A stretch of DNA of 25,693 nucleotides from IMG/VR virus record IMGVR_UViG_3300048919_000076, one strand, 5' to 3'. The stretch comes from an uncultured virus (IMG/VR IMGVR_UViG_3300048919_000076). Taxonomy: Duplodnaviria > Heunggongvirae > Uroviricota > Caudoviricetes. How positions within the stretch are numbered: the stretch's first letter is position 1; the number at the start of each line of letters is the position of its first letter. The notes beneath the pieces are model-generated. The model saw nothing but the letters and a program-made list of their open reading frames with translations, did no database searches and was not told where the DNA came from. Below are positions 2,868 through 18,880 of this stretch, piece by piece. The position numbers were made by a program, and so were the translations under genes.

Positions 2868-2969
2868 GTGCACTTTCTAGTCCTATTAACTCATTAGTGT
2901 GGTGCAGCTACTATTGCTGTGGGTGCACCTCATTTTTGATAATATTATATACGTGCGGTGGAGTGTGAA

Positions 2970-3536
2970 ATGATTCAAGAAGAAATATTGACTGAAGTCT
3001 GGAAAGATATTGAAGGGTATTCCGGCTATCAAGTTAGTAACATGGGAAGAGTTAAGAGTCTTGTAAAGGCTTACAGACGTGAAGAGATTATTCTTAAAGG
3101 TAGTCCTAACACAACAGGTTATATTCTTGTACAGCTTTATCCTGAACCAAGACAGCGTAAGTCACTGCTTGTGCATAGGCTTGTTATGCTAACCTTTCAA
3201 CCTAATCCAATGATGGATGAACTGGAGGTGAATCATAAGGATCTAGATACAACTAATAACAAGATGTCTAATCTTGAATGGGTTACTCAAAAGGAGAACA
3301 AAGAGCACTATCAGGCAAGTGATAAGTTTAAGACTGTAATCATTAAAGTGCCCAAAGGTGAGGAACAACATCTATCAAAGCTTACGGAGAAACAGGTGAT
3401 CGAGATACGCAGACTGTATGCAGCTAACGAACACGGTACTAGGAAGAAACTAAGAGAGACTTATGGTGTAAGTGAAGGTTGTATTCGTAACATTCTTGAC
3501 GGAGTTACTTGGAAACACCTTCTTCCAGAAGTGTAA
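2970..3536 (+). CDS. NUMOD4-HNH homing endonuclease with C-terminal HTH-like domain
   Basis: NUMOD4 EVWKDIEGYSGYQVSNMGRVKS; HNH motif VHRLV...VNHKDLDTTNNKMSNLEWVTQKEN; C-terminal SKLTEKQVIEIR...YGVS...I...TWKH; ATG 2970 with GGAG RBS. Confidence 0.92.
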   Translation: MIQEEILTEVWKDIEGYSGYQVSNMGRVKSLVKAYRREEIILKGSPNTTGYILVQLYPEPRQRKSLLVHRLVMLTFQPNPMMDELEVNHKDLDTTNNKMSNLEWVTQKENKEHYQASDKFKTVIIKVPKGEEQHLSKLTEKQVIEIRRLYAANEHGTRKKLRETYGVSEGCIRNILDGVTWKHLLPEV

Positions 3537-15337: not shown

Positions 15338-15748
15338 TCAATCACACCATCCCGGTTGTTCATGTTTCTTACGAGCTTCTGGAATACAATCTGCACAAGC
15401 TCTGCCTGCAAAACTGTAACGATATGTCTTGTCTGCTTCTTTCTTGCACACACCGCAAGTAGTCTCAGCCTTCAAGAATGTTTCAGGATTGTAAACTGTT
15501 GGCAGCTCAATACACAATCCATCTGGTGCCCAAGCATGTAGACTAACTTCGTATTTCCACTTACCGACATCTTTACGCGTGATTGCGGATATTACAAAAC
15601 CGTCTCGTGTCAGGCGGCAAGCTCGCATAGCTGGTTCACTTGGATAAGTCTGTGATAGTTCCCAGCCATCAGCTCCAGCAGCTTGGATGAAAGCATTAGC
15701 TGCTTCAAAGTATTTTACATCATTTGTGTGGCCGAATTGATTGATCAT
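15338..15748 (-). CDS. Hypothetical protein with C-terminal zinc finger
   Basis: AAGGAG RBS; CGVC...CADC. Confidence 0.8.
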   Translation of the reverse strand: MINQFGHTNDVKYFEAANAFIQAAGADGWELSQTYPSEPAMRACRLTRDGFVISAITRKDVGKWKYEVSLHAWAPDGLCIELPTVYNPETFLKAETTCGVCKKEADKTYRYSFAGRACADCIPEARKKHEQPGWCD

Positions 15749-16062
15749 TTTGTTTCTCCTTTAGCCCATTCGATAGCTGCCACCAGCACATCACCATGGC
15801 ATGACTTCGGAGCATAATAGCAAGCCAATCGCTTACCGTCAAGCTCAAGAAGCATTTCTTTGGTAATCACGCCCTTGCGAATCTGATTCCATAGATATTG
15901 TTTGTAACGTTCTATAGACTCTTCTCGTGTAGCAACTTGCATTTCTGCTTTGGTTGGTGTGCTTAAGCTAGTGTAGGGGTTTCCCCATTTTGAGCCTCTA
16001 CCGATATAGACAATATCAGCATCGGACATACTTACTTTGTATTTGTTGACTACTGTTGTCAT
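15745..16062 (-). CDS. DUF4326-family protein
   Basis: VYIGRGSKWGNPY and ELDGKRLAC-x-x-x-P-x-x-CHGDVL signature. Confidence 0.85.
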   Translation of the reverse strand: MTTVVNKYKVSMSDADIVYIGRGSKWGNPYTSLSTPTKAEMQVATREESIERYKQYLWNQIRKGVITKEMLLELDGKRLACYYAPKSCHGDVLVAAIEWAKGETK

Positions 16063-16256
16063 TCTACCAACTCCACTTCATCCCTATGAAAAGGCCACTG
16101 AGCTGTATCATCTGGATCAGCCCCATCAAACCTGACTTCTTGGATATAAATTCCATATGGACGATCATCAACATAACTGATTGTATATTCTGAGCCTACT
16201 TCGAACATTGTGTAGGGGCTAGAGATGATGCGTACTTTGTTGCCTGTAATGTACAT
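16059..16256 (-). CDS. Hypothetical protein, SH3-like
   Basis: AGGAG RBS before MYITGNKVRII...DEVELVE. Confidence 0.75.
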   Translation of the reverse strand: MYITGNKVRIISSPYTMFEVGSEYTISYVDDRPYGIYIQEVRFDGADPDDTAQWPFHRDEVELVE

Positions 16257-16290
16257 GGTGTTTCTCCTATCAATTGGTTTGTGTGAACGA

Positions 16291-16325
16291 ATTTTAGACA
16301 AAAGAAAAGGGCCTGTCAAGGCCCT
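16291..16325 (-). promoter_or_regulatory. Fused terminator and sigma70-type promoter
   Basis: AGGGCC-TTGACA-GGCCCT-TTTCTTTT; TTGACA-N17-TAAAAT; the loop also holds the nuclease TGA stop. Confidence 0.9.
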
Positions 16326-17290
16326 GTGTGGATATTTCTTTCTGTAAGGGAATCAAGCAGTTGCACAATACCACCAAAATCTGATAGCGAAGCTGTCTCT
16401 GTGTAGCCGTCCGGCATTTCCTCTTTAGGTATTACACCACAAGAGAATGTATCTTTTACAGTCTGCTCAGCCTTACGACAATCAAAGGTTGTATTGAATT
16501 CCCATACTGCGTAGTTTTCAAGCCTAAGTTTGTTCTTTTTATTCAACCCTTTGAATCTTACACTCCAATTATTTGCAATGCCAAACTTAACACCAACAGG
16601 TGTATCCTCAGAGTAGAGGATATGTAGGTAAACTTGCTTTTGTCTGAAGGTGTTACACTCACAACCTCTATAACCTTGAATCAAATTCTTGTAGTTTGAT
16701 GTGTAAGTGATAGCACACTCTGGACACTGTACATCCCAATACTCTCTGTGTCCGTTCTTTGCTTTCTTATCTGATCTAGTAAAGATTGTGTCTTCTGCAA
16801 AACCTTTAAAACTTTTAATTGCTTCGTCATCAGGTTTTCTTGTTTTATGCACCATCTTTTGTGAGTGACATTCGGAACACAGTATGTCATATCGTCTAGA
16901 ATCGTTTATACAGCTACCGTCCCAAGTTATGTTGTGAGTCGTGCAGTGCATTTTAGTTCTAGTTTGTGAACCTATATAATCAGAAGACCAACCTAAGAAC
17001 TCACAATTAAATAAAGAAGCTCTTCGATTCAATAGGATTTTATATTGCCATTCCTCCCACTGGGGAGCTACAGAACAGCCGCAAGGTCTTACTTTATCTC
17101 TTAGTGTTTTCGTGCCTACATCAAATAATCCCAGTTTAAATAGTTCTGGATCTTGTTTGCATACTTCACACTCTACTACCAGTCTAAGCTTATTATTTTC
17201 ATTCCTGTAAGAGCCAATGATGTTGTAGTAATCAGATTTATATTTATCTACATCTGTATTTAGATCTTTAGTACTTTCGTATATCTTCAT
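16316..17290 (-). CDS. Homing-endonuclease-like protein: three Cys/His zinc-binding units plus a C-terminal GIY-YIG superfamily (T5orf172-like) nuclease domain
   Basis: CEVC...PCGC, CTTH...CSEC, CPEC...GCEC; then VYL...VKFGIA...R...L...AEQ...DGYTET. Confidence 0.8.
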   Translation of the reverse strand: MKIYESTKDLNTDVDKYKSDYYNIIGSYRNENNKLRLVVECEVCKQDPELFKLGLFDVGTKTLRDKVRPCGCSVAPQWEEWQYKILLNRRASLFNCEFLGWSSDYIGSQTRTKMHCTTHNITWDGSCINDSRRYDILCSECHSQKMVHKTRKPDDEAIKSFKGFAEDTIFTRSDKKAKNGHREYWDVQCPECAITYTSNYKNLIQGYRGCECNTFRQKQVYLHILYSEDTPVGVKFGIANNWSVRFKGLNKKNKLRLENYAVWEFNTTFDCRKAEQTVKDTFSCGVIPKEEMPDGYTETASLSDFGGIVQLLDSLTERNIHTGP

Positions 17291-17344
17291 TCTATCTCTT
17301 TCTTATCTATTATATTAATATCTTATATACCTATTCTGTTAGAT

Positions 17345-17688
17345 TAGAGTTTAGGAAAGATAGATTAATCCCAAGAAATGCCATACAGAAGTATCCTCCT
17401 GCCTAGACATAACTTTGATCTATCTTACCCTATAACAGCTCATTCTGTTGAGTTGTCGCTTAGGCTGACATTAGGTCAGAGCTATCAAGAATCTGATAAC
17501 AAGATTGTTCATCATTCCACCCAAAGGCGTAATCGATCCGCTATAATGAACTTCGATTCAGCTTGGCCGAGGATCTTCCCTCTTCATAACCTTTAATACA
17601 GAGCCGGTGAGTGCGCCTAAATAGGCCGTTGACATTTCTCTCTCTGTACGATGACCTTCTAATTTGCTCTCGCTTAGAAGAAGTCCAT
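17345..17688 (-). ncRNA. Candidate structured non-coding RNA (~345 nt)
   Basis: Downstream of a promoter, no credible ORF, 8 or more stems, several with G-U pairs valid only on the minus strand, GAGA tetraloop. Confidence 0.65.
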
Positions 17689-17694
17689 GTGTAA

Positions 17695-17723
17695 ATATTA
17701 CGCTATTAATCTCTCAATTGCAA
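17695..17723 (-). promoter_or_regulatory. Sigma70-type promoter for the ncRNA/nuclease unit
   Basis: TTGCAA-N17-TAATAT. Confidence 0.75.
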
Positions 17724-17782
17724 GCTTTCTGACATGATATGTTTTTATAGCAAACAGAGAAAGCGATAACTACAAGGAATAC

Positions 17783-17917
17783 CTAATCACCCTCCAACAC
17801 CCTCAACATCTCTTCAAGATCCTCTCTACTCAGCCACAGAGGACGTTCCTCTTGTTGGTGATAGATGATAATTGCATTACCTACCTTGTCCCAATCTGTA
17901 CCGTTGTCTGTGTTCAT
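17783..17917 (-). CDS. Hypothetical protein (44 aa)
   Basis: Not in ORF track; AGGAAGG RBS; LWLSREDLEEMLRVLEGD. Confidence 0.65.
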   Translation of the reverse strand: MNTDNGTDWDKVGNAIIIYHQQEERPLWLSREDLEEMLRVLEGD

Positions 17918-17919
17918 GT

Positions 17920-18147
17920 TCAAGCCTTCCTAACCAAATAATCCAACAATTTATAGATATCAGTGATAGCTTCTCCCATATCCATATTTCGTGAATTCAC
18001 ATTGTAACGAAGATCATCAAGTCTGCCCAACATCTCGGCTTTATATTCCTCGGCATACCTCTGCTCAAGAATCTTCTTGCAAGCCATCATTCCTTCACCA
18101 GTTTCTTGCTGCAAAGCTCGTACTTCTTCAATAGTTGGGCCTTTCAT
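17920..18147 (-). CDS. Protein with an EF-Ts N-terminal (UBA-like) domain
   Basis: TIEEVRALQQETGEGMMACKKILEQ vs EF-Ts [25 protein letters not shown]. Confidence 0.75.
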   Translation of the reverse strand: MKGPTIEEVRALQQETGEGMMACKKILEQRYAEEYKAEMLGRLDDLRYNVNSRNMDMGEAITDIYKLLDYLVRKA

Positions 18148-18344
18148 TTCACATCTCCAATAACATCATAAGTAGTCTCTGCACCATAAGGACGAACAGT
18201 CCACTTAGCAATCAGCTTCTTCTCATACTGATATTCATGTCCGTTGTCAACATAAATCCATTCATCATCCTCGGTGACATCAATCACAGGATCTACCCAA
18301 TCTCGTGAGCCATCTTTAAGCTCTACAACGAATTCATTGTGCAT
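18144..18344 (-). CDS. Hypothetical protein
   Basis: GGAGGGG RBS; beta-rich, 66 aa. Confidence 0.75.
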   Translation of the reverse strand: MHNEFVVELKDGSRDWVDPVIDVTEDDEWIYVDNGHEYQYEKKLIAKWTVRPYGAETTYDVIGDVK

Positions 18345-18411
18345 TAGCTCTGCCCCTCCCCAAGCTTAAGTTTCTCTCCAGAAGATGCGTCAATGATTTT
18401 AAATTTCTTTT

Positions 18412-18678: not shown

Positions 18679-18706
18679 GGCGTTTCTCCTCAATTAATGT
18701 AGGCCA

Positions 18707-18734
18707 ATCATAACAGATCAAGGGGTGAAGTCAA
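18707..18734 (-). promoter_or_regulatory. Leftward sigma70-type promoter of the divergent pair
   Basis: TTGACT-N16-TATGAT with extended -10 TG. Confidence 0.75.
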
Positions 18735-18815
18735 GAGGGGATAGCGAATAAATTCGCATAGATGAGGAATAAATTTACTGGGATGGAGTGTAGGAGAATT
18801 TTGTTGGGAAGGTGC

Positions 18816-18843
18816 TTGACATAGCAAATTGAACGTGTAGAAT
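18816..18843 (+). promoter_or_regulatory. Rightward sigma70-type promoter of the divergent pair
   Basis: TTGACA-N16-TAGAAT. Confidence 0.8.
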
Positions 18844-18880
18844 GTGACGTATTGAAAGCAAACCTAATGAGGAAACGGAC

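What the first reader, a model, noticed from the sequence alone, without database searches (positions are those of the whole stretch)
17345..17688. Candidate novel ~345-nt structured RNA with its own promoter
Seen: no credible ORF after the TTGCAA-N17-TAATAT promoter. Stems in transcript order: 17653-17685 (CUUCUAA/UUAGAAG capped by GC-GAGA-GC), 17597-17648 (UACAGAG/CUCUGUA enclosing GCCU/AGGC), GAGGG/UCCUC (~17569-17582), 17507-17551 (GUUCAUUAU/AUGAUGAAC), 17481-17500 (GUUAUCA/UGAUAGC), 17465-17479 (CUGAC/GUCAG), 17434-17449 (AACAG/CUGUU), and 17357-17426 (AAGAUAGAU/AUCUAUCUU enclosing GCAGGAG/CUUCUGU). At least four stems contain G-U pairs that would be A-C mismatches on the other strand, which points to selection on RNA structure in the transcribed direction. 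I do not recognise it as tRNA, tmRNA, RNase P, 6S or an intron.
Basis: partly seen in the sequence, partly recalled or inferred. Interest (0 to 1): 0.8.

Follow-up and report, generated by a model that had tools for sequence, protein, structure and literature searches.

The report
Conserved structured RNA leading phage homing-endonuclease cassette
A roughly 340-base folded RNA with its own promoter sits in front of a selfish nuclease gene in a soil phage and is kept almost unchanged while the nuclease gene drifts or breaks, which suggests a new kind of large functional RNA tied to mobile nuclease genes.

Summary
Window 17341-17688 (minus strand) has no conserved reading frame, starts about 7 nt after a TTGCAA-N17-TAATAT promoter, and folds into two 5' hairpins plus a six-hairpin domain closed by a long-range helix. 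It is not a free-standing gene. It runs, with no terminator, into a 324-aa CapR/T5orf172 homing endonuclease gene (HEG, 16316-17290) that ends in a terminator.

The promoter-RNA-HEG-terminator unit recurs in at least four other lineages with unrelated flanks. In them the RNA core is 93-98% identical. The HEG is only 78% aa identical (dS 1.6) in one lineage, and its 3' end is 82% nt identical in another. The few RNA changes preserve structure: a U-A to C-G swap, a hairpin replaced by another hairpin, G-U/G-C exchanges, and loop changes.

A second "type B" RNA shares the promoter and both 5' hairpins. It has a different ~400-nt structured core (z -3.5) and a different small HEG, with the same contrast in conservation.

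No Rfam family matches either type.

Function is unknown. My best guess is a cis-acting control domain for HEG expression (0.4). The main rival is an independent RNA gene that the HEGs use as an anchor (0.3).

The parts
17724..17756 (-). Conserved block upstream of the -35 hexamer (ATAAAAAnATATCATGTnAnAAAGC...)
   Evidence: 85% identical to L006 over 40 nt although the surrounding flanks cannot be aligned. Similar blocks occur in L074 and L091 and in the X14 loose end.
17695..17723 (-). Sigma-70-type promoter TTGCAA (17723-17718), N17, TAATAT (17700-17695); predicted start near 17688
   Evidence: Read. TTGCAA is kept in L006, L074, L091 and the X14 loose end. The -10 is TAATAT in L074, TGaCAAAAT in L006 and TGcTATAGT in L091. 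The X16 variant has 8 substitutions between 17690 and 17729 and none in either hexamer. The consensus scan does not list the promoter, because it matches 8 of 12 positions.
17653..17685 (-). HP1: 5'-terminal hairpin CUUCUAA/UUAGAAG capped by a 2-bp GC-GAGA-GC mini-hairpin
   Evidence: Folds. The 18-nt apical block UCUAAGCGAGAGCAAAUU is identical in L006 and L074. L091 has CG-GCAA-CG instead, with both pairs swapped and the loop still of the form G-N-R-A. In L006 a 73-nt expansion sits inside this hairpin and the stem is kept with changed pairs. X16 changes a U-A pair to U-G at 17657.
17596..17649 (-). HP2: stem GUACAGAG/CUCUGUAU enclosing UGU/GCA and GCCU-AUUU-AGGC
   Evidence: Mean pair probability of the basal stem is 0.96. 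X16 carries 17648 A>G together with 17597 T>C, which turns an RNA U-A pair into C-G. The same stem carries a different apical part in type B.
17341..17592 (-). Multi-branch core: a long-range helix (17592-17573 with 17361-17341) closes six hairpins at 17570-17558, 17551-17507, 17500-17481, 17479-17465, 17464-17429 and 17425-17362
   Evidence: z = -2.97, with 1 of 300 shuffles as good. Taken with HP2 (17345-17650) there are 7 substitutions and one 2-nt indel in 306 nt against L006, and all are compatible with the consensus fold. X16 replaces the apical hairpin CGCC-UUUG-GGUG with CGUAC-AACA-GUGCG. X20 inserts 13 nt at the apex of 17402-17385.
17291..17340 (-). A/U-rich spacer and ribosome-binding region; the block AAAGAGAUAGAAUGAA (17301-17286) is conserved
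   Evidence: 7 mismatches in 52 aligned nt against L006, but the RBS block is identical. No terminator-like site was found here.
16316..17290 (-). 324-aa homing endonuclease gene (CapR zinc-finger DNA-binding domain plus T5orf172/MUG113-like nuclease domain)
   Evidence: Pfam CapR E 5.4e-16. Pfam MUG113 E 0.0033, which is below the curated cut-off. phrog_681 'endonuclease' E 1.1e-53. Against L006: 78% aa identity, dN 0.12, dS 1.63, dN/dS 0.074.
16298..16325 (-). Intrinsic terminator closing the cassette (AGGGCCU-UGAC-AGGCCCU followed by a U run)
   Evidence: Homology to L006, X14 and X20 ends at 16287-16295.

Best explanation
Window 17341-17688 (minus strand) encodes a genuine, compactly folded RNA of about 340 nt. 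It is the conserved core of a mobile promoter-RNA-HEG-terminator cassette.

Shown by the sequence or by comparison:
- Host-type RNA polymerase would start near 17688, from a promoter whose hexamers are kept in all lineages.
- The transcript forms a 5' hairpin with a G-N-R-A cap (HP1), a second hairpin (HP2), and a six-hairpin domain closed by a long-range helix.
- With no terminator in between, transcription continues through an A/U-rich spacer into the T5orf172-type homing endonuclease ORF and stops at the terminator at 16325-16298.

Inferred:
- The RNA acts in cis as a control domain of the nuclease mRNA. It would be a 'safety lock' or sensor that sets when and how much nuclease is translated.
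- One way this could work is by deciding whether the pyrimidine tract AUCUAUCUU (17365-17357) pairs with AAGAUAGAU (17426-17418) or with the purine-rich ribosome-binding block GAGAUAGA (17298-17291).
- Phage-level selection against mis-expressed nuclease would then keep the RNA far more constant than the nuclease gene itself.

I put about 0.85 on it being a functional structured RNA. The figure of 0.4 is for the cis-control mechanism.
For: No coding signal.
- Sense frames are broken by stops.
- The 73-nt insertion in L006, which is not a multiple of 3, and its 2-nt indel shift the frames.
- All 5 nucleotide differences inside the antisense 72-aa ORF change the amino acid (comparison).

Mobile cassette.
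- Homology to L006 runs only from the promoter block to about 20 nt past the HEG stop. Both flanks match at about chance level, 19-32 matches per 60-nt window.
- The X14 contig carries 16287-17705 at 95% identity, again with unlike flanks on both sides. X16 diverges upstream of 17783.

The RNA is far more conserved than the HEG.
- Core 17345-17650 differs from L006 at 7 of 306 positions (p = 0.023). The HEG has dN 0.12 and dS 1.63.
- In X20 the RNA piece 17429-17595 has 3 differences, while the HEG 3' piece 16295-16522 has 42 differences in 228 nt.

Changes preserve structure.
- None of the 106 consensus pairs is broken in window or L006. Five one-sided changes keep pairing and the rest fall in loops.
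- X16 has a compensatory U-A to C-G change in HP2 and a whole hairpin swap in the core.
- The mini-hairpin GC-GAGA-GC becomes CG-GCAA-CG in L091.

Strand. The minus strand gives z = -2.5 to -3.0; the plus strand gives -1.5 to -1.9.

Promoter. Hexamers are conserved while the spacer is free to vary.

Cis role.
- There is no terminator between the RNA and the ORF.
- The RBS block is conserved inside an otherwise variable spacer.
- The motif AGAUAGA occurs both in the core stem and in the RBS.
- Type B repeats the same layout with another RNA core and another HEG.
- Established knowledge, recalled and not checked in a call: phage T4 endonuclease genes are translationally held back by mRNA hairpins.
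Against: - Only two full type-A sequences and three partial variants exist, so covariation cannot be tested statistically.
- The RBS is not clearly sequestered in the full-length folds. Unpaired probabilities are about 0.5-0.8 in the window and 0.2-0.7 in L006, and the global fold changes when the spacer is added.
- A lock for a selfish gene would be expected to co-evolve with that gene. Instead the RNA stays about 97% identical while the type-B HEG falls to 41-75% aa identity.
- The RNA is retained where the HEG is broken: L029 has a 338-nt deletion and L091 has a frameshift.
- Six of the 7 distant relatives of this HEG (32-38% aa) have no long leader; the seventh could not be judged. The RNA is therefore not needed by the enzyme family.
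- A structure of this size and complexity is more than a simple RBS lock needs.
Confidence: 0.4

Rival explanations
1. The element is an independent RNA gene that acts in trans, either as cargo useful to the phage or as a selfish RNA. The endonuclease genes are parasites parked next to it. Its highly conserved DNA would give them their recognition site or homology anchor, as free-standing HEGs do next to conserved genes. The RNA would be released from the co-transcript by processing in the A/U-rich spacer.
For: - The RNA is much more conserved than the HEG in three separate comparisons: L006 and X20 for type A, and L074 against L091 for type B.
- The RNA is kept where the HEG is deleted or frameshifted.
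- Two RNA types are each paired with a different nuclease family, as expected if each nuclease recognises 'its' RNA gene.
- The promoter sits directly at the RNA 5' end and a 5' hairpin follows it.
- T5orf172 HEGs are reported to lie at boundaries of genetic exchange (passages of PMC10448857).
Against: - The RNA was never found without an HEG or an HEG remnant downstream, in 2 type-A and 2 type-B lineages in IMG/VR.
- There is no terminator or other defined 3' end after the core.
- A complete relative genome, G006, lacks the RNA, so it is not a core phage gene.
- No host homolog or look-alike was found in 400 sampled genomes of the class of G007. Four of the 400 gave only 22-32-nt matches that look like chance.
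Confidence: 0.3
2. The conservation is a DNA-level effect. The nuclease would cut inside or beside this stretch in rival cassettes, and short-tract gene conversion would keep homogenising it. The fold would then be incidental.
For: - HEGs promote local exchange (passages of PMC10448857).
- The pattern is mosaic: the 5' module, the core and the HEG have different histories.
- The contrast of 97% nt identity in the core against about 50% aa identity in the type-B HEG is hard to reach by purifying selection alone.
Against: - The substitutions that do exist preserve pairing. They include two fully compensatory pairs, two hairpin-for-hairpin or loop-for-loop replacements, and G-U/G-C exchanges that would be A-C mismatches on the other strand.
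- Folding energy is strand-specific: z = -3.54 against -1.54 for type B, and -2.97 against -1.88 for type A.
- The 5' limit of high identity falls just 5' of HP2 in both RNA types.
Confidence: 0.1
3. The RNA is catalytic: a new self-cleaving, capping or splicing RNA. It would process the nuclease mRNA, or together with the HEG form a composite mobile element comparable to a mobile group I intron or to the GIR1-HEG arrangement.
For: - The RNA is large, multi-helix and very highly conserved in sequence.
- HP1 has a G-N-R-A cap in all four full sequences.
- A CUAAG/UAUGG pair lies on opposite strands of a predicted helix in type B, and CCUAAG/UAUAGG in type A. This resembles the 11-nt tetraloop receptor of large ribozymes; the motif identity is recalled, not tested.
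- The life-cycle pattern is intron-like: the HEG decays while the RNA is kept.
Against: - No group I, group II or small-ribozyme model of Rfam matches either RNA type at E <= 10.
- The cassette is intergenic with no exon continuity. It follows the upstream ORF's stop at 17783, has its own promoter, and ends in a terminator.
- The cassette's 5' limits differ between lineages: 17705, about 17757, and 17783.
Confidence: 0.08
4. The RNA is a partner of the nuclease protein itself: an inhibitor (antitoxin-like immunity for the carrier genome), a cofactor, or a guide, loosely like type III toxin-antitoxin pairs or IscB with its omega RNA.
For: - The RNA lies directly upstream of a nuclease ORF under one promoter inside a mobile unit.
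- Each nuclease type has its own RNA type.
- The 5' end is variable and the scaffold is constant.
Against: - The protein already has CapR zinc-finger DNA-binding domains.
- Six of the 7 distant relatives of similar length have no long leader.
- The RNA does not co-vary with the protein; it stays about 97% identical while the protein diverges.
- There is no repeat array and no terminator between the RNA and the ORF.
- Rfam shows no match to HEARO or omega RNA families.
Confidence: 0.07
5. The stretch is a decayed or unconventional protein-coding region, that is, a pseudogene, a small ORF or a recoded gene.
For: - One sense frame has only 4 stops in about 110 codons.
- That frame holds a 25-aa ORF, MSTAYLG..., at 17635-17558 behind a purine-rich stretch.
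Against: - Indels of 73 nt and 2 nt in L006, and of 13 nt in X20, are tolerated.
- The HP2 apical part that holds the 25-aa ORF is replaced wholesale in type B.
- All 5 differences in the antisense ORF are non-synonymous.
- A pseudogene would not stay 97-98% identical while the neighbouring working gene reaches dS 1.6.
Confidence: 0.03

Closest known systems
HEARO / omega RNA with IscB (OMEGA systems)
   Same: A large structured RNA of roughly 200-400 nt is encoded immediately 5' of a mobile endonuclease ORF, is co-transcribed with it, and travels with it.
   Different: The nuclease here is a CapR/T5orf172 (GIY-YIG-like) homing endonuclease with its own zinc-finger DNA-binding domains, not a RuvC/HNH IscB. 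No Rfam match was found. Distant relatives of the enzyme lack the RNA. There is no evidence of a guide segment.
mRNA hairpins that restrain translation of phage T4-type homing endonuclease genes (I-TevI, mobE); recalled knowledge
   Same: A cis-encoded RNA structure upstream of a phage HEG that could limit nuclease synthesis.
   Different: Those are single short hairpins over the RBS. Here the structure is a 340-450-nt multi-helix domain, is more conserved than the gene it precedes, and shows no clear RBS sequestration in the predicted folds.
Mobile group I introns and the GIR1 lariat-capping ribozyme upstream of an intron HEG; recalled knowledge
   Same: A structured RNA and an HEG form one mobile unit. 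The RNA is kept while the HEG degenerates. There are G-N-R-A caps and receptor-like motifs.
   Different: The cassette is intergenic, has its own promoter and terminator, and interrupts no gene. No intron or ribozyme model matches. The HEG lies 3' of the structure, not inside it.
Large phage-associated RNAs of unknown function (ROOL, GOLLD); recalled knowledge
   Same: Large, complex RNAs found in phage DNA, not coding, with unknown function.
   Different: No Rfam match at the gathering or E-value thresholds. The size and layout differ. This RNA is tied to HEGs rather than to tRNA clusters, and no tRNA lies in the window.
T5orf172 homing endonucleases with CapR-like domains (ICP1 phages; PMC10448857, PMC8096241)
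   Same: The downstream protein has this domain make-up, and such genes sit at boundaries between conserved and variable phage DNA.
   Different: The passages I read mention no conserved non-coding leader or RNA partner. The terms 'non-coding', 'noncoding' and 'promoter' do not occur in that paper's main text.

Membership tests
Any RNA family in Rfam 15 (4227 models) | Covariance-model match at the gathering score, or at least at E <= 10 | tested here: not met
   The whole window at gathering score gave 0 matches. Window 16000-18400 at E <= 10 gave 4 weak hits, none inside the element. The element alone gave one chance-level snoRNA hit at E = 7. The L006 copy gave 0 hits. Type-B locus L074 gave 3 chance-level hits.
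Group I intron | Match to the group I covariance model | tested here: not met
   No group I hit at E <= 10 on either strand of type A or type B.
Group I intron | Interrupts a host gene, with exons that join into one product or RNA | tested here: not met
   The upstream ORF ends with its own stop at 17783. The cassette starts with a promoter and ends with a terminator. The flanks are unrelated in L006 and X14, and X16 diverges upstream of 17783; the 5' limit of homology differs among the three.
Group I intron | Self-splicing activity | not testable with these tools
   This needs in vitro transcription and a splicing assay.
HEARO / omega RNA-IscB | The partner protein is IscB (RuvC plus HNH) | tested here: not met
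   Pfam finds CapR and, below the cut-off, MUG113. PHROGs finds phrog_681 'endonuclease'. No RuvC or HNH domain was found.
HEARO / omega RNA-IscB | A structured RNA directly upstream of the nuclease ORF inside a mobile element | tested here: met
   The core ends about 50 nt before the ATG. The unit recurs with unrelated flanks.
Type III toxin-antitoxin (ToxIN-like) | The RNA antitoxin is a tandem array of short repeats, separated from the toxin gene by a terminator | tested here: not met
   No direct-repeat family lies within the element. No terminator-like site lies between 17291 and 17700.
Riboswitch-type cis-regulatory leader | Lies in the 5' untranslated region of the regulated gene on one transcript | tested here: met
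   The promoter is at 17723-17695, the ORF start at 17290, and no terminator lies between them.
Riboswitch-type cis-regulatory leader | An expression platform: alternative pairing that hides the RBS or forms a terminator | tested here: inconclusive
   AUCUAUCUU (17365-17357) can pair with AAGAUAGAU (17426-17418) or with GAGAUAGA in the RBS (sequence). The predicted ensembles leave the RBS about half open, and the global fold is unstable.
Riboswitch-type cis-regulatory leader | Ligand or factor binding | not testable with these tools
   This needs in-line probing or binding assays.
Sigma-70 promoter | Two hexamers at 16-18 nt spacing, conserved in relatives | tested here: met
   The window has TTGCAA-N17-TAATAT. 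TTGCAA is kept in L006, L074, L091 and X14. The -10 hexamers are TAATAT, or extended -10 variants, behind unrelated spacers. X16 has 8 changes around the hexamers and none inside them. The match to consensus is only 8 of 12, so the scan does not call it.
T5orf172 homing endonuclease (the downstream protein) | T5orf172/MUG113-type nuclease domain plus a DNA-binding domain | tested here: inconclusive
   CapR E 5.4e-16, above the cut-off. MUG113 scores 18.4 bits, below the cut-off of 22.3. phrog_681 E 1.1e-53. 355 phage records hold relatives, several of them annotated as endonuclease. Catalytic residues were not checked.

The most novel reading that the evidence does not exclude
HP1, HP2 and the core form a new class of large ribozyme-like or ligand-sensing RNA, with at least two subtypes sharing one 5' module. 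This RNA, not the nuclease, would be the selected heart of a composite mobile element. It would work with GIY-YIG-type homing endonucleases either by processing or gating their mRNA, or by serving as the conserved site they home to. That would make it a bacterial-virus counterpart of the ribozyme-plus-HEG partnership of mobile introns, but without any host gene to splice.
Probability: 0.15. Interest if true: 0.9.

Novelty: new variant of a known kind. Interest (0 to 1): 0.7.

Why it matters
Large, highly conserved non-coding RNAs with no assigned family are rare, and several earlier ones turned out to be ribozymes or guide RNAs of mobile nucleases.

This RNA evolves about five times more slowly than the amino-acid-changing sites of a working neighbouring gene, and it survives that gene's decay. 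A second RNA type shows the same pattern with a different nuclease.

- If it gates nuclease expression, it would be a new and unusually elaborate way for a selfish gene to be kept harmless to its phage.
- If it is an independent RNA, it is a new phage RNA gene that homing endonucleases have learned to ride on.

Either way it gives a concrete, clonable unit of about 1.4 kb for testing how RNA structure and homing endonucleases interact.

Tried and rejected
**Expression data.** No RNA holder was listed by the look-up of sequencing runs. The runs marked 'RNA?' (X15, X16, X20) are contigs and the RNA label is a guess. I used them only as sequence variants, not as evidence of transcription. X15 gave one 212-nt contig (17385-17596) identical to the window, which shows nothing about expression.

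**Homolog hunting.**
- blastn of 17200-17900, and of the type-B leader, against 50,697 phage records found no match.
- Exact-pattern scans of viral contigs gave:
  - 6 of 6 stretches were already known.
  - 6 of 33 were true, and all 6 were known.
  - 7 of 18 were true, with 1 new, L074.
  - 9 of 9 were true, with 2 new and identical to each other, L091 and L094.
Only the contigs of L074 and L091 matched among what was fetched.
- Genome contigs: 0 of 5 pattern stretches were true. A protein-alignment scan found no relative.
- The metagenome scan found only the window's own contig and L029.
- The viral scan with the alignment found 4 loci, all known.
- 400 genomes of the class of G007: 4 gave 22-32-nt matches that look like chance. 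One genome was not scored.
- The search of earlier findings by sequence returned nothing.

**Ideas dropped.**
- CsrA/RsmA sponge: GGA motifs are not enriched in type A (7 observed, 5.6 expected) or type B (11 observed, 7.8 expected).
- Phage-wide promoter motif: AAAGCTTGCAAT with up to 2 mismatches occurs 5 times in the window against 4.4 expected.
- Transposon-like ends: there are no terminal inverted or direct repeats at the cassette limits.
- Extra copies: there is one module per contig in 4 of 5 contigs and none in G006.
- Pseudogene of the ORF that precedes the HEG in distant relatives: not tested by protein search. I set it aside because of the conservation argument.
It probably lies at or before the transcript start.

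**Not attempted.** I built no covariance model and made no structure or complex predictions. With two near-identical sequences per type they would add little.
Full report
**Setting.** The window is phage DNA. It encodes a primase/helicase, a family-A DNA polymerase, an HNH endonuclease and many small ORFs. The helicase is 79% aa identical to that of Pseudomonas phage vB_PsaM_M1, an 89-kb phage. An IMG/VR contig (G001) carries the region at 100% identity. The finding lies on the minus strand, in a gap of about 490 nt (17291-17782) between a 46-aa ORF that ends at 17783 and a 324-aa ORF at 16316-17290.

**Observation.**
- The promoter is present: TTGCAA at 17723-17718, a 17-nt spacer, and TAATAT at 17700-17695. 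It matches only 8 of 12 consensus positions, so the consensus scan does not list it.
- The sense-strand frames are cut by stops. The longest are 53 and 51 aa.
The other two are replaced by a long-range helix (17581-17573 with 17361-17353) and by GACA/UGUU plus CUCA/UGAG.
- At the bounds set by conservation it is better. 17341-17650 gives z = -2.49 (3 of 300 shuffles as good) and 17341-17592 gives z = -2.97 (1 of 300). The plus strand gives -1.49 and -1.88.
- No Rfam family matches at the gathering score or at E <= 10. There is no tRNA or tmRNA.

**What follows the RNA.**
- The 324-aa protein has a CapR zinc-finger domain (E 5e-16) and a sub-threshold MUG113/T5orf172 match. It matches phrog_681 'endonuclease' at E 1e-53.
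- This is the architecture described for T5orf172 homing endonucleases (passages of PMC10448857; search listing and abstract start of PMC8096241).
- A terminator follows at 16325-16298. No terminator-like site lies between the RNA and the ORF.
- The RNA is therefore physically the leader of the HEG mRNA.

**A mobile cassette.**
- An 88-kb viral contig (L006) carries the same unit.
- Homology runs only from a 40-nt block around the -35 hexamer to about 20 nt past the HEG stop. Both flanks match at about chance level, 19-32 matches per 60-nt window.
- Logan contigs laid on the region add three lineages:
  - X14, a 21-kb contig, covers 16287-17705 at 95% identity with unlike sequence on both sides.
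  - X16 covers 17429-17783 at 93% identity and diverges upstream.
  - X20 is present as pieces.
- Relatives of the neighbouring 75-aa gene (L019-L021) lack the cassette. L020 and L021 carry a different 440-aa gene in the same slot.
- Six of the 7 distant relatives of the HEG (32-38% aa) have the preceding ORF overlapping or ending within 140 nt of the HEG start, five of them overlapping it or within 36 nt. They have no long leader.

**Conservation contrast.**
- Against L006 the HEG is 78% aa identical, with dN 0.12, dS 1.63 and dN/dS 0.074. It is an old split and the gene is under purifying selection.
- Over the same comparison the RNA core 17345-17650 differs at 7 of 306 positions plus one 2-nt indel (p = 0.023).
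- The spacer 17291-17344 differs at 7 of 52 positions. Upstream of 17650 the sequences are barely alignable and L006 has a 73-nt insertion.
- In X20 the piece 17429-17595 has 3 differences, while the HEG 3' piece 16295-16522 has 42 differences in 228 nt.
- A near-identical phage (L029) has lost 338 nt from inside the HEG but keeps the RNA.

**The changes respect the fold.**
- In the two-sequence consensus none of the 106 pairs is broken.
- The five substitutions that hit paired columns are G-U to A-U, G-U to G-C, C-G to U-G, G-C to G-U and G-U to G-C. The others fall in loops or junctions.
- These exchanges would be A-C mismatches on the plus strand.
- X16 carries 17648 A>G together with 17597 T>C. 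That converts a U-A pair of HP2 into C-G.
- X16 also carries six substitutions and a 2-nt insertion at 17519-17527. These turn the hairpin CGCC-UUUG-GGUG into CGUAC-AACA-GUGCG, which is still a hairpin.
- X16 has a U-A to U-G change in HP1. X20 carries 13 extra bases at the apex of the 17402-17385 hairpin (pairings worked out by hand from the table).
- Against the fold: 17589 (RNA U to C in X14, X16 and X20) would weaken the predicted outer helix unless 17344 also changes, which I could not see.
- These are few events from few lineages. They are consistent with selection on structure but are not a statistical test.

**A second RNA type.**
- Searching for the conserved apical block of HP1 and for the HP2 stem found L074 and L091 (L094 is identical to L091).
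- These loci share the upstream block, the TTGCAA hexamer, a -10 hexamer, HP1 and the HP2 stem. They then continue with a different ORF-free core of about 400 nt and a small HEG-like ORF of 126 aa (phrog_314 'homing endonuclease', E 9e-7; no Pfam hit).
- Type B folds well on the sense strand only: z = -3.54 with 0 of 100 shuffles as good, against -1.54 on the antisense strand.
- L074 and L091 are 95% identical over 451 nt of leader. Their HEGs match at only 75% aa over 32 residues and 41% over 80 residues, and the L091 copy is frameshifted in an A run.
- Their differences are one compensatory C-G to U-A pair, loop substitutions, a loop replacement (UUUAU to GCAA), one unplaced change, and the HP1 cap GC-GAGA-GC becoming CG-GCAA-CG. 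None of the 144 consensus pairs is broken.
- No Rfam family matches type B either.
- Each contig holds one such module. A complete relative genome, G006, holds none.

**Motifs.**
- HP1 ends in a G-N-R-A loop in all four full sequences.
- Type B has CUAAG and UAUGG facing each other in a predicted helix. Type A has CCUAAG and UAUAGG at the base of the 17464-17429 hairpin.
- From memory this resembles the tetraloop-receptor pair of large ribozymes. I did not test it.

**Interpretation.**
- The element is real and RNA-level. I put this at about 0.85.
- Its function is open.
- I rank a cis-acting control domain of the HEG mRNA first (0.4). The reasons are the single transcription unit, the conserved RBS block, the repeated AGAUAGA motif that offers alternative pairing for 17365-17357, and the same layout in two cassette types.
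- Against this ranking: the RNA is more conserved than the gene it would serve, it is kept when that gene breaks, and the predicted folds do not clearly hide the RBS.
- The main rival (0.3) is an independent RNA gene beside which different HEGs have settled, using its constant DNA as target or anchor.
- Lesser rivals are DNA-level gene conversion with an incidental fold (0.1), a new ribozyme or intron-like partner (0.08), a protein partner, inhibitor or guide (0.07), and coding or pseudogene (0.03).

**Novelty.**
- No match in Rfam 15.
- Four literature searches and the passages read in PMC10448857 show no conserved RNA leader described for T5orf172 or GIY-YIG homing endonucleases.
- I did not read that paper's supplements. 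They may list intergenic features.
- I file it as a new variant of a known kind (a structured RNA coupled to a mobile endonuclease gene). There is a 0.15 chance that it is a categorically new RNA-HEG partnership.

Noticed in passing
L074:1383-1835 (minus strand) and L091:1768-2235: A 'type B' RNA. It has the same promoter block, HP1 and HP2 stem as the window's element, then a different ~400-nt structured core (z = -3.54). A small GIY-YIG-like HEG follows. The core is about 97% identical between two phages whose HEGs are only 41-75% aa identical.
   Followed up: partly
L029 (metagenome contig), matching window 16405-16742: A near-identical phage (99.8-99.9% identity) has a 338-nt internal deletion in the endonuclease gene while the leader RNA is intact.
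   Followed up: partly
L091:2312-2703: The type-B HEG is split by a frameshift in an A run. Two contigs from different samples (L091 and L094) carry the identical broken form.
   Followed up: partly
L021:4765-6087 and L020:2447-3769: The slot that holds the cassette in the window holds instead a 440-aa ORF (phrog_4756, no Pfam domain). By my reading of the two translations it is nearly identical between the two phages, although their flanking genes are much less alike. This looks like another mobile gene at a hot spot.
   Followed up: no
window 2958-3536 (+): A second homing-type endonuclease (NUMOD4 plus HNH_3, phrog_59). It has only about 90 nt of upstream gap, so not every HEG in this phage has a long leader.
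   Followed up: no
window 18700-18850: Good promoter matches face away from each other: minus strand 18734-18707 (10 of 12) and plus strand 18816-18843 (11 of 12). They sit where gene orientation switches, so this is probably the divergent early control region.
   Followed up: no
window 17464-17429 and L074:1492/1439: CCUAAG/UAUAGG in type A and CUAAG/UAUGG in type B lie on opposite strands of predicted helices, and the 5' hairpin has a G-N-R-A cap. This may be a tetraloop-receptor contact. The motif identity is from memory.
   Followed up: partly
window 15745-16062 (-): A DUF4326 protein (E 5e-19) lies two genes downstream of the cassette. PHROGs links related sequences to an NrdA-like annotation.
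   Followed up: no
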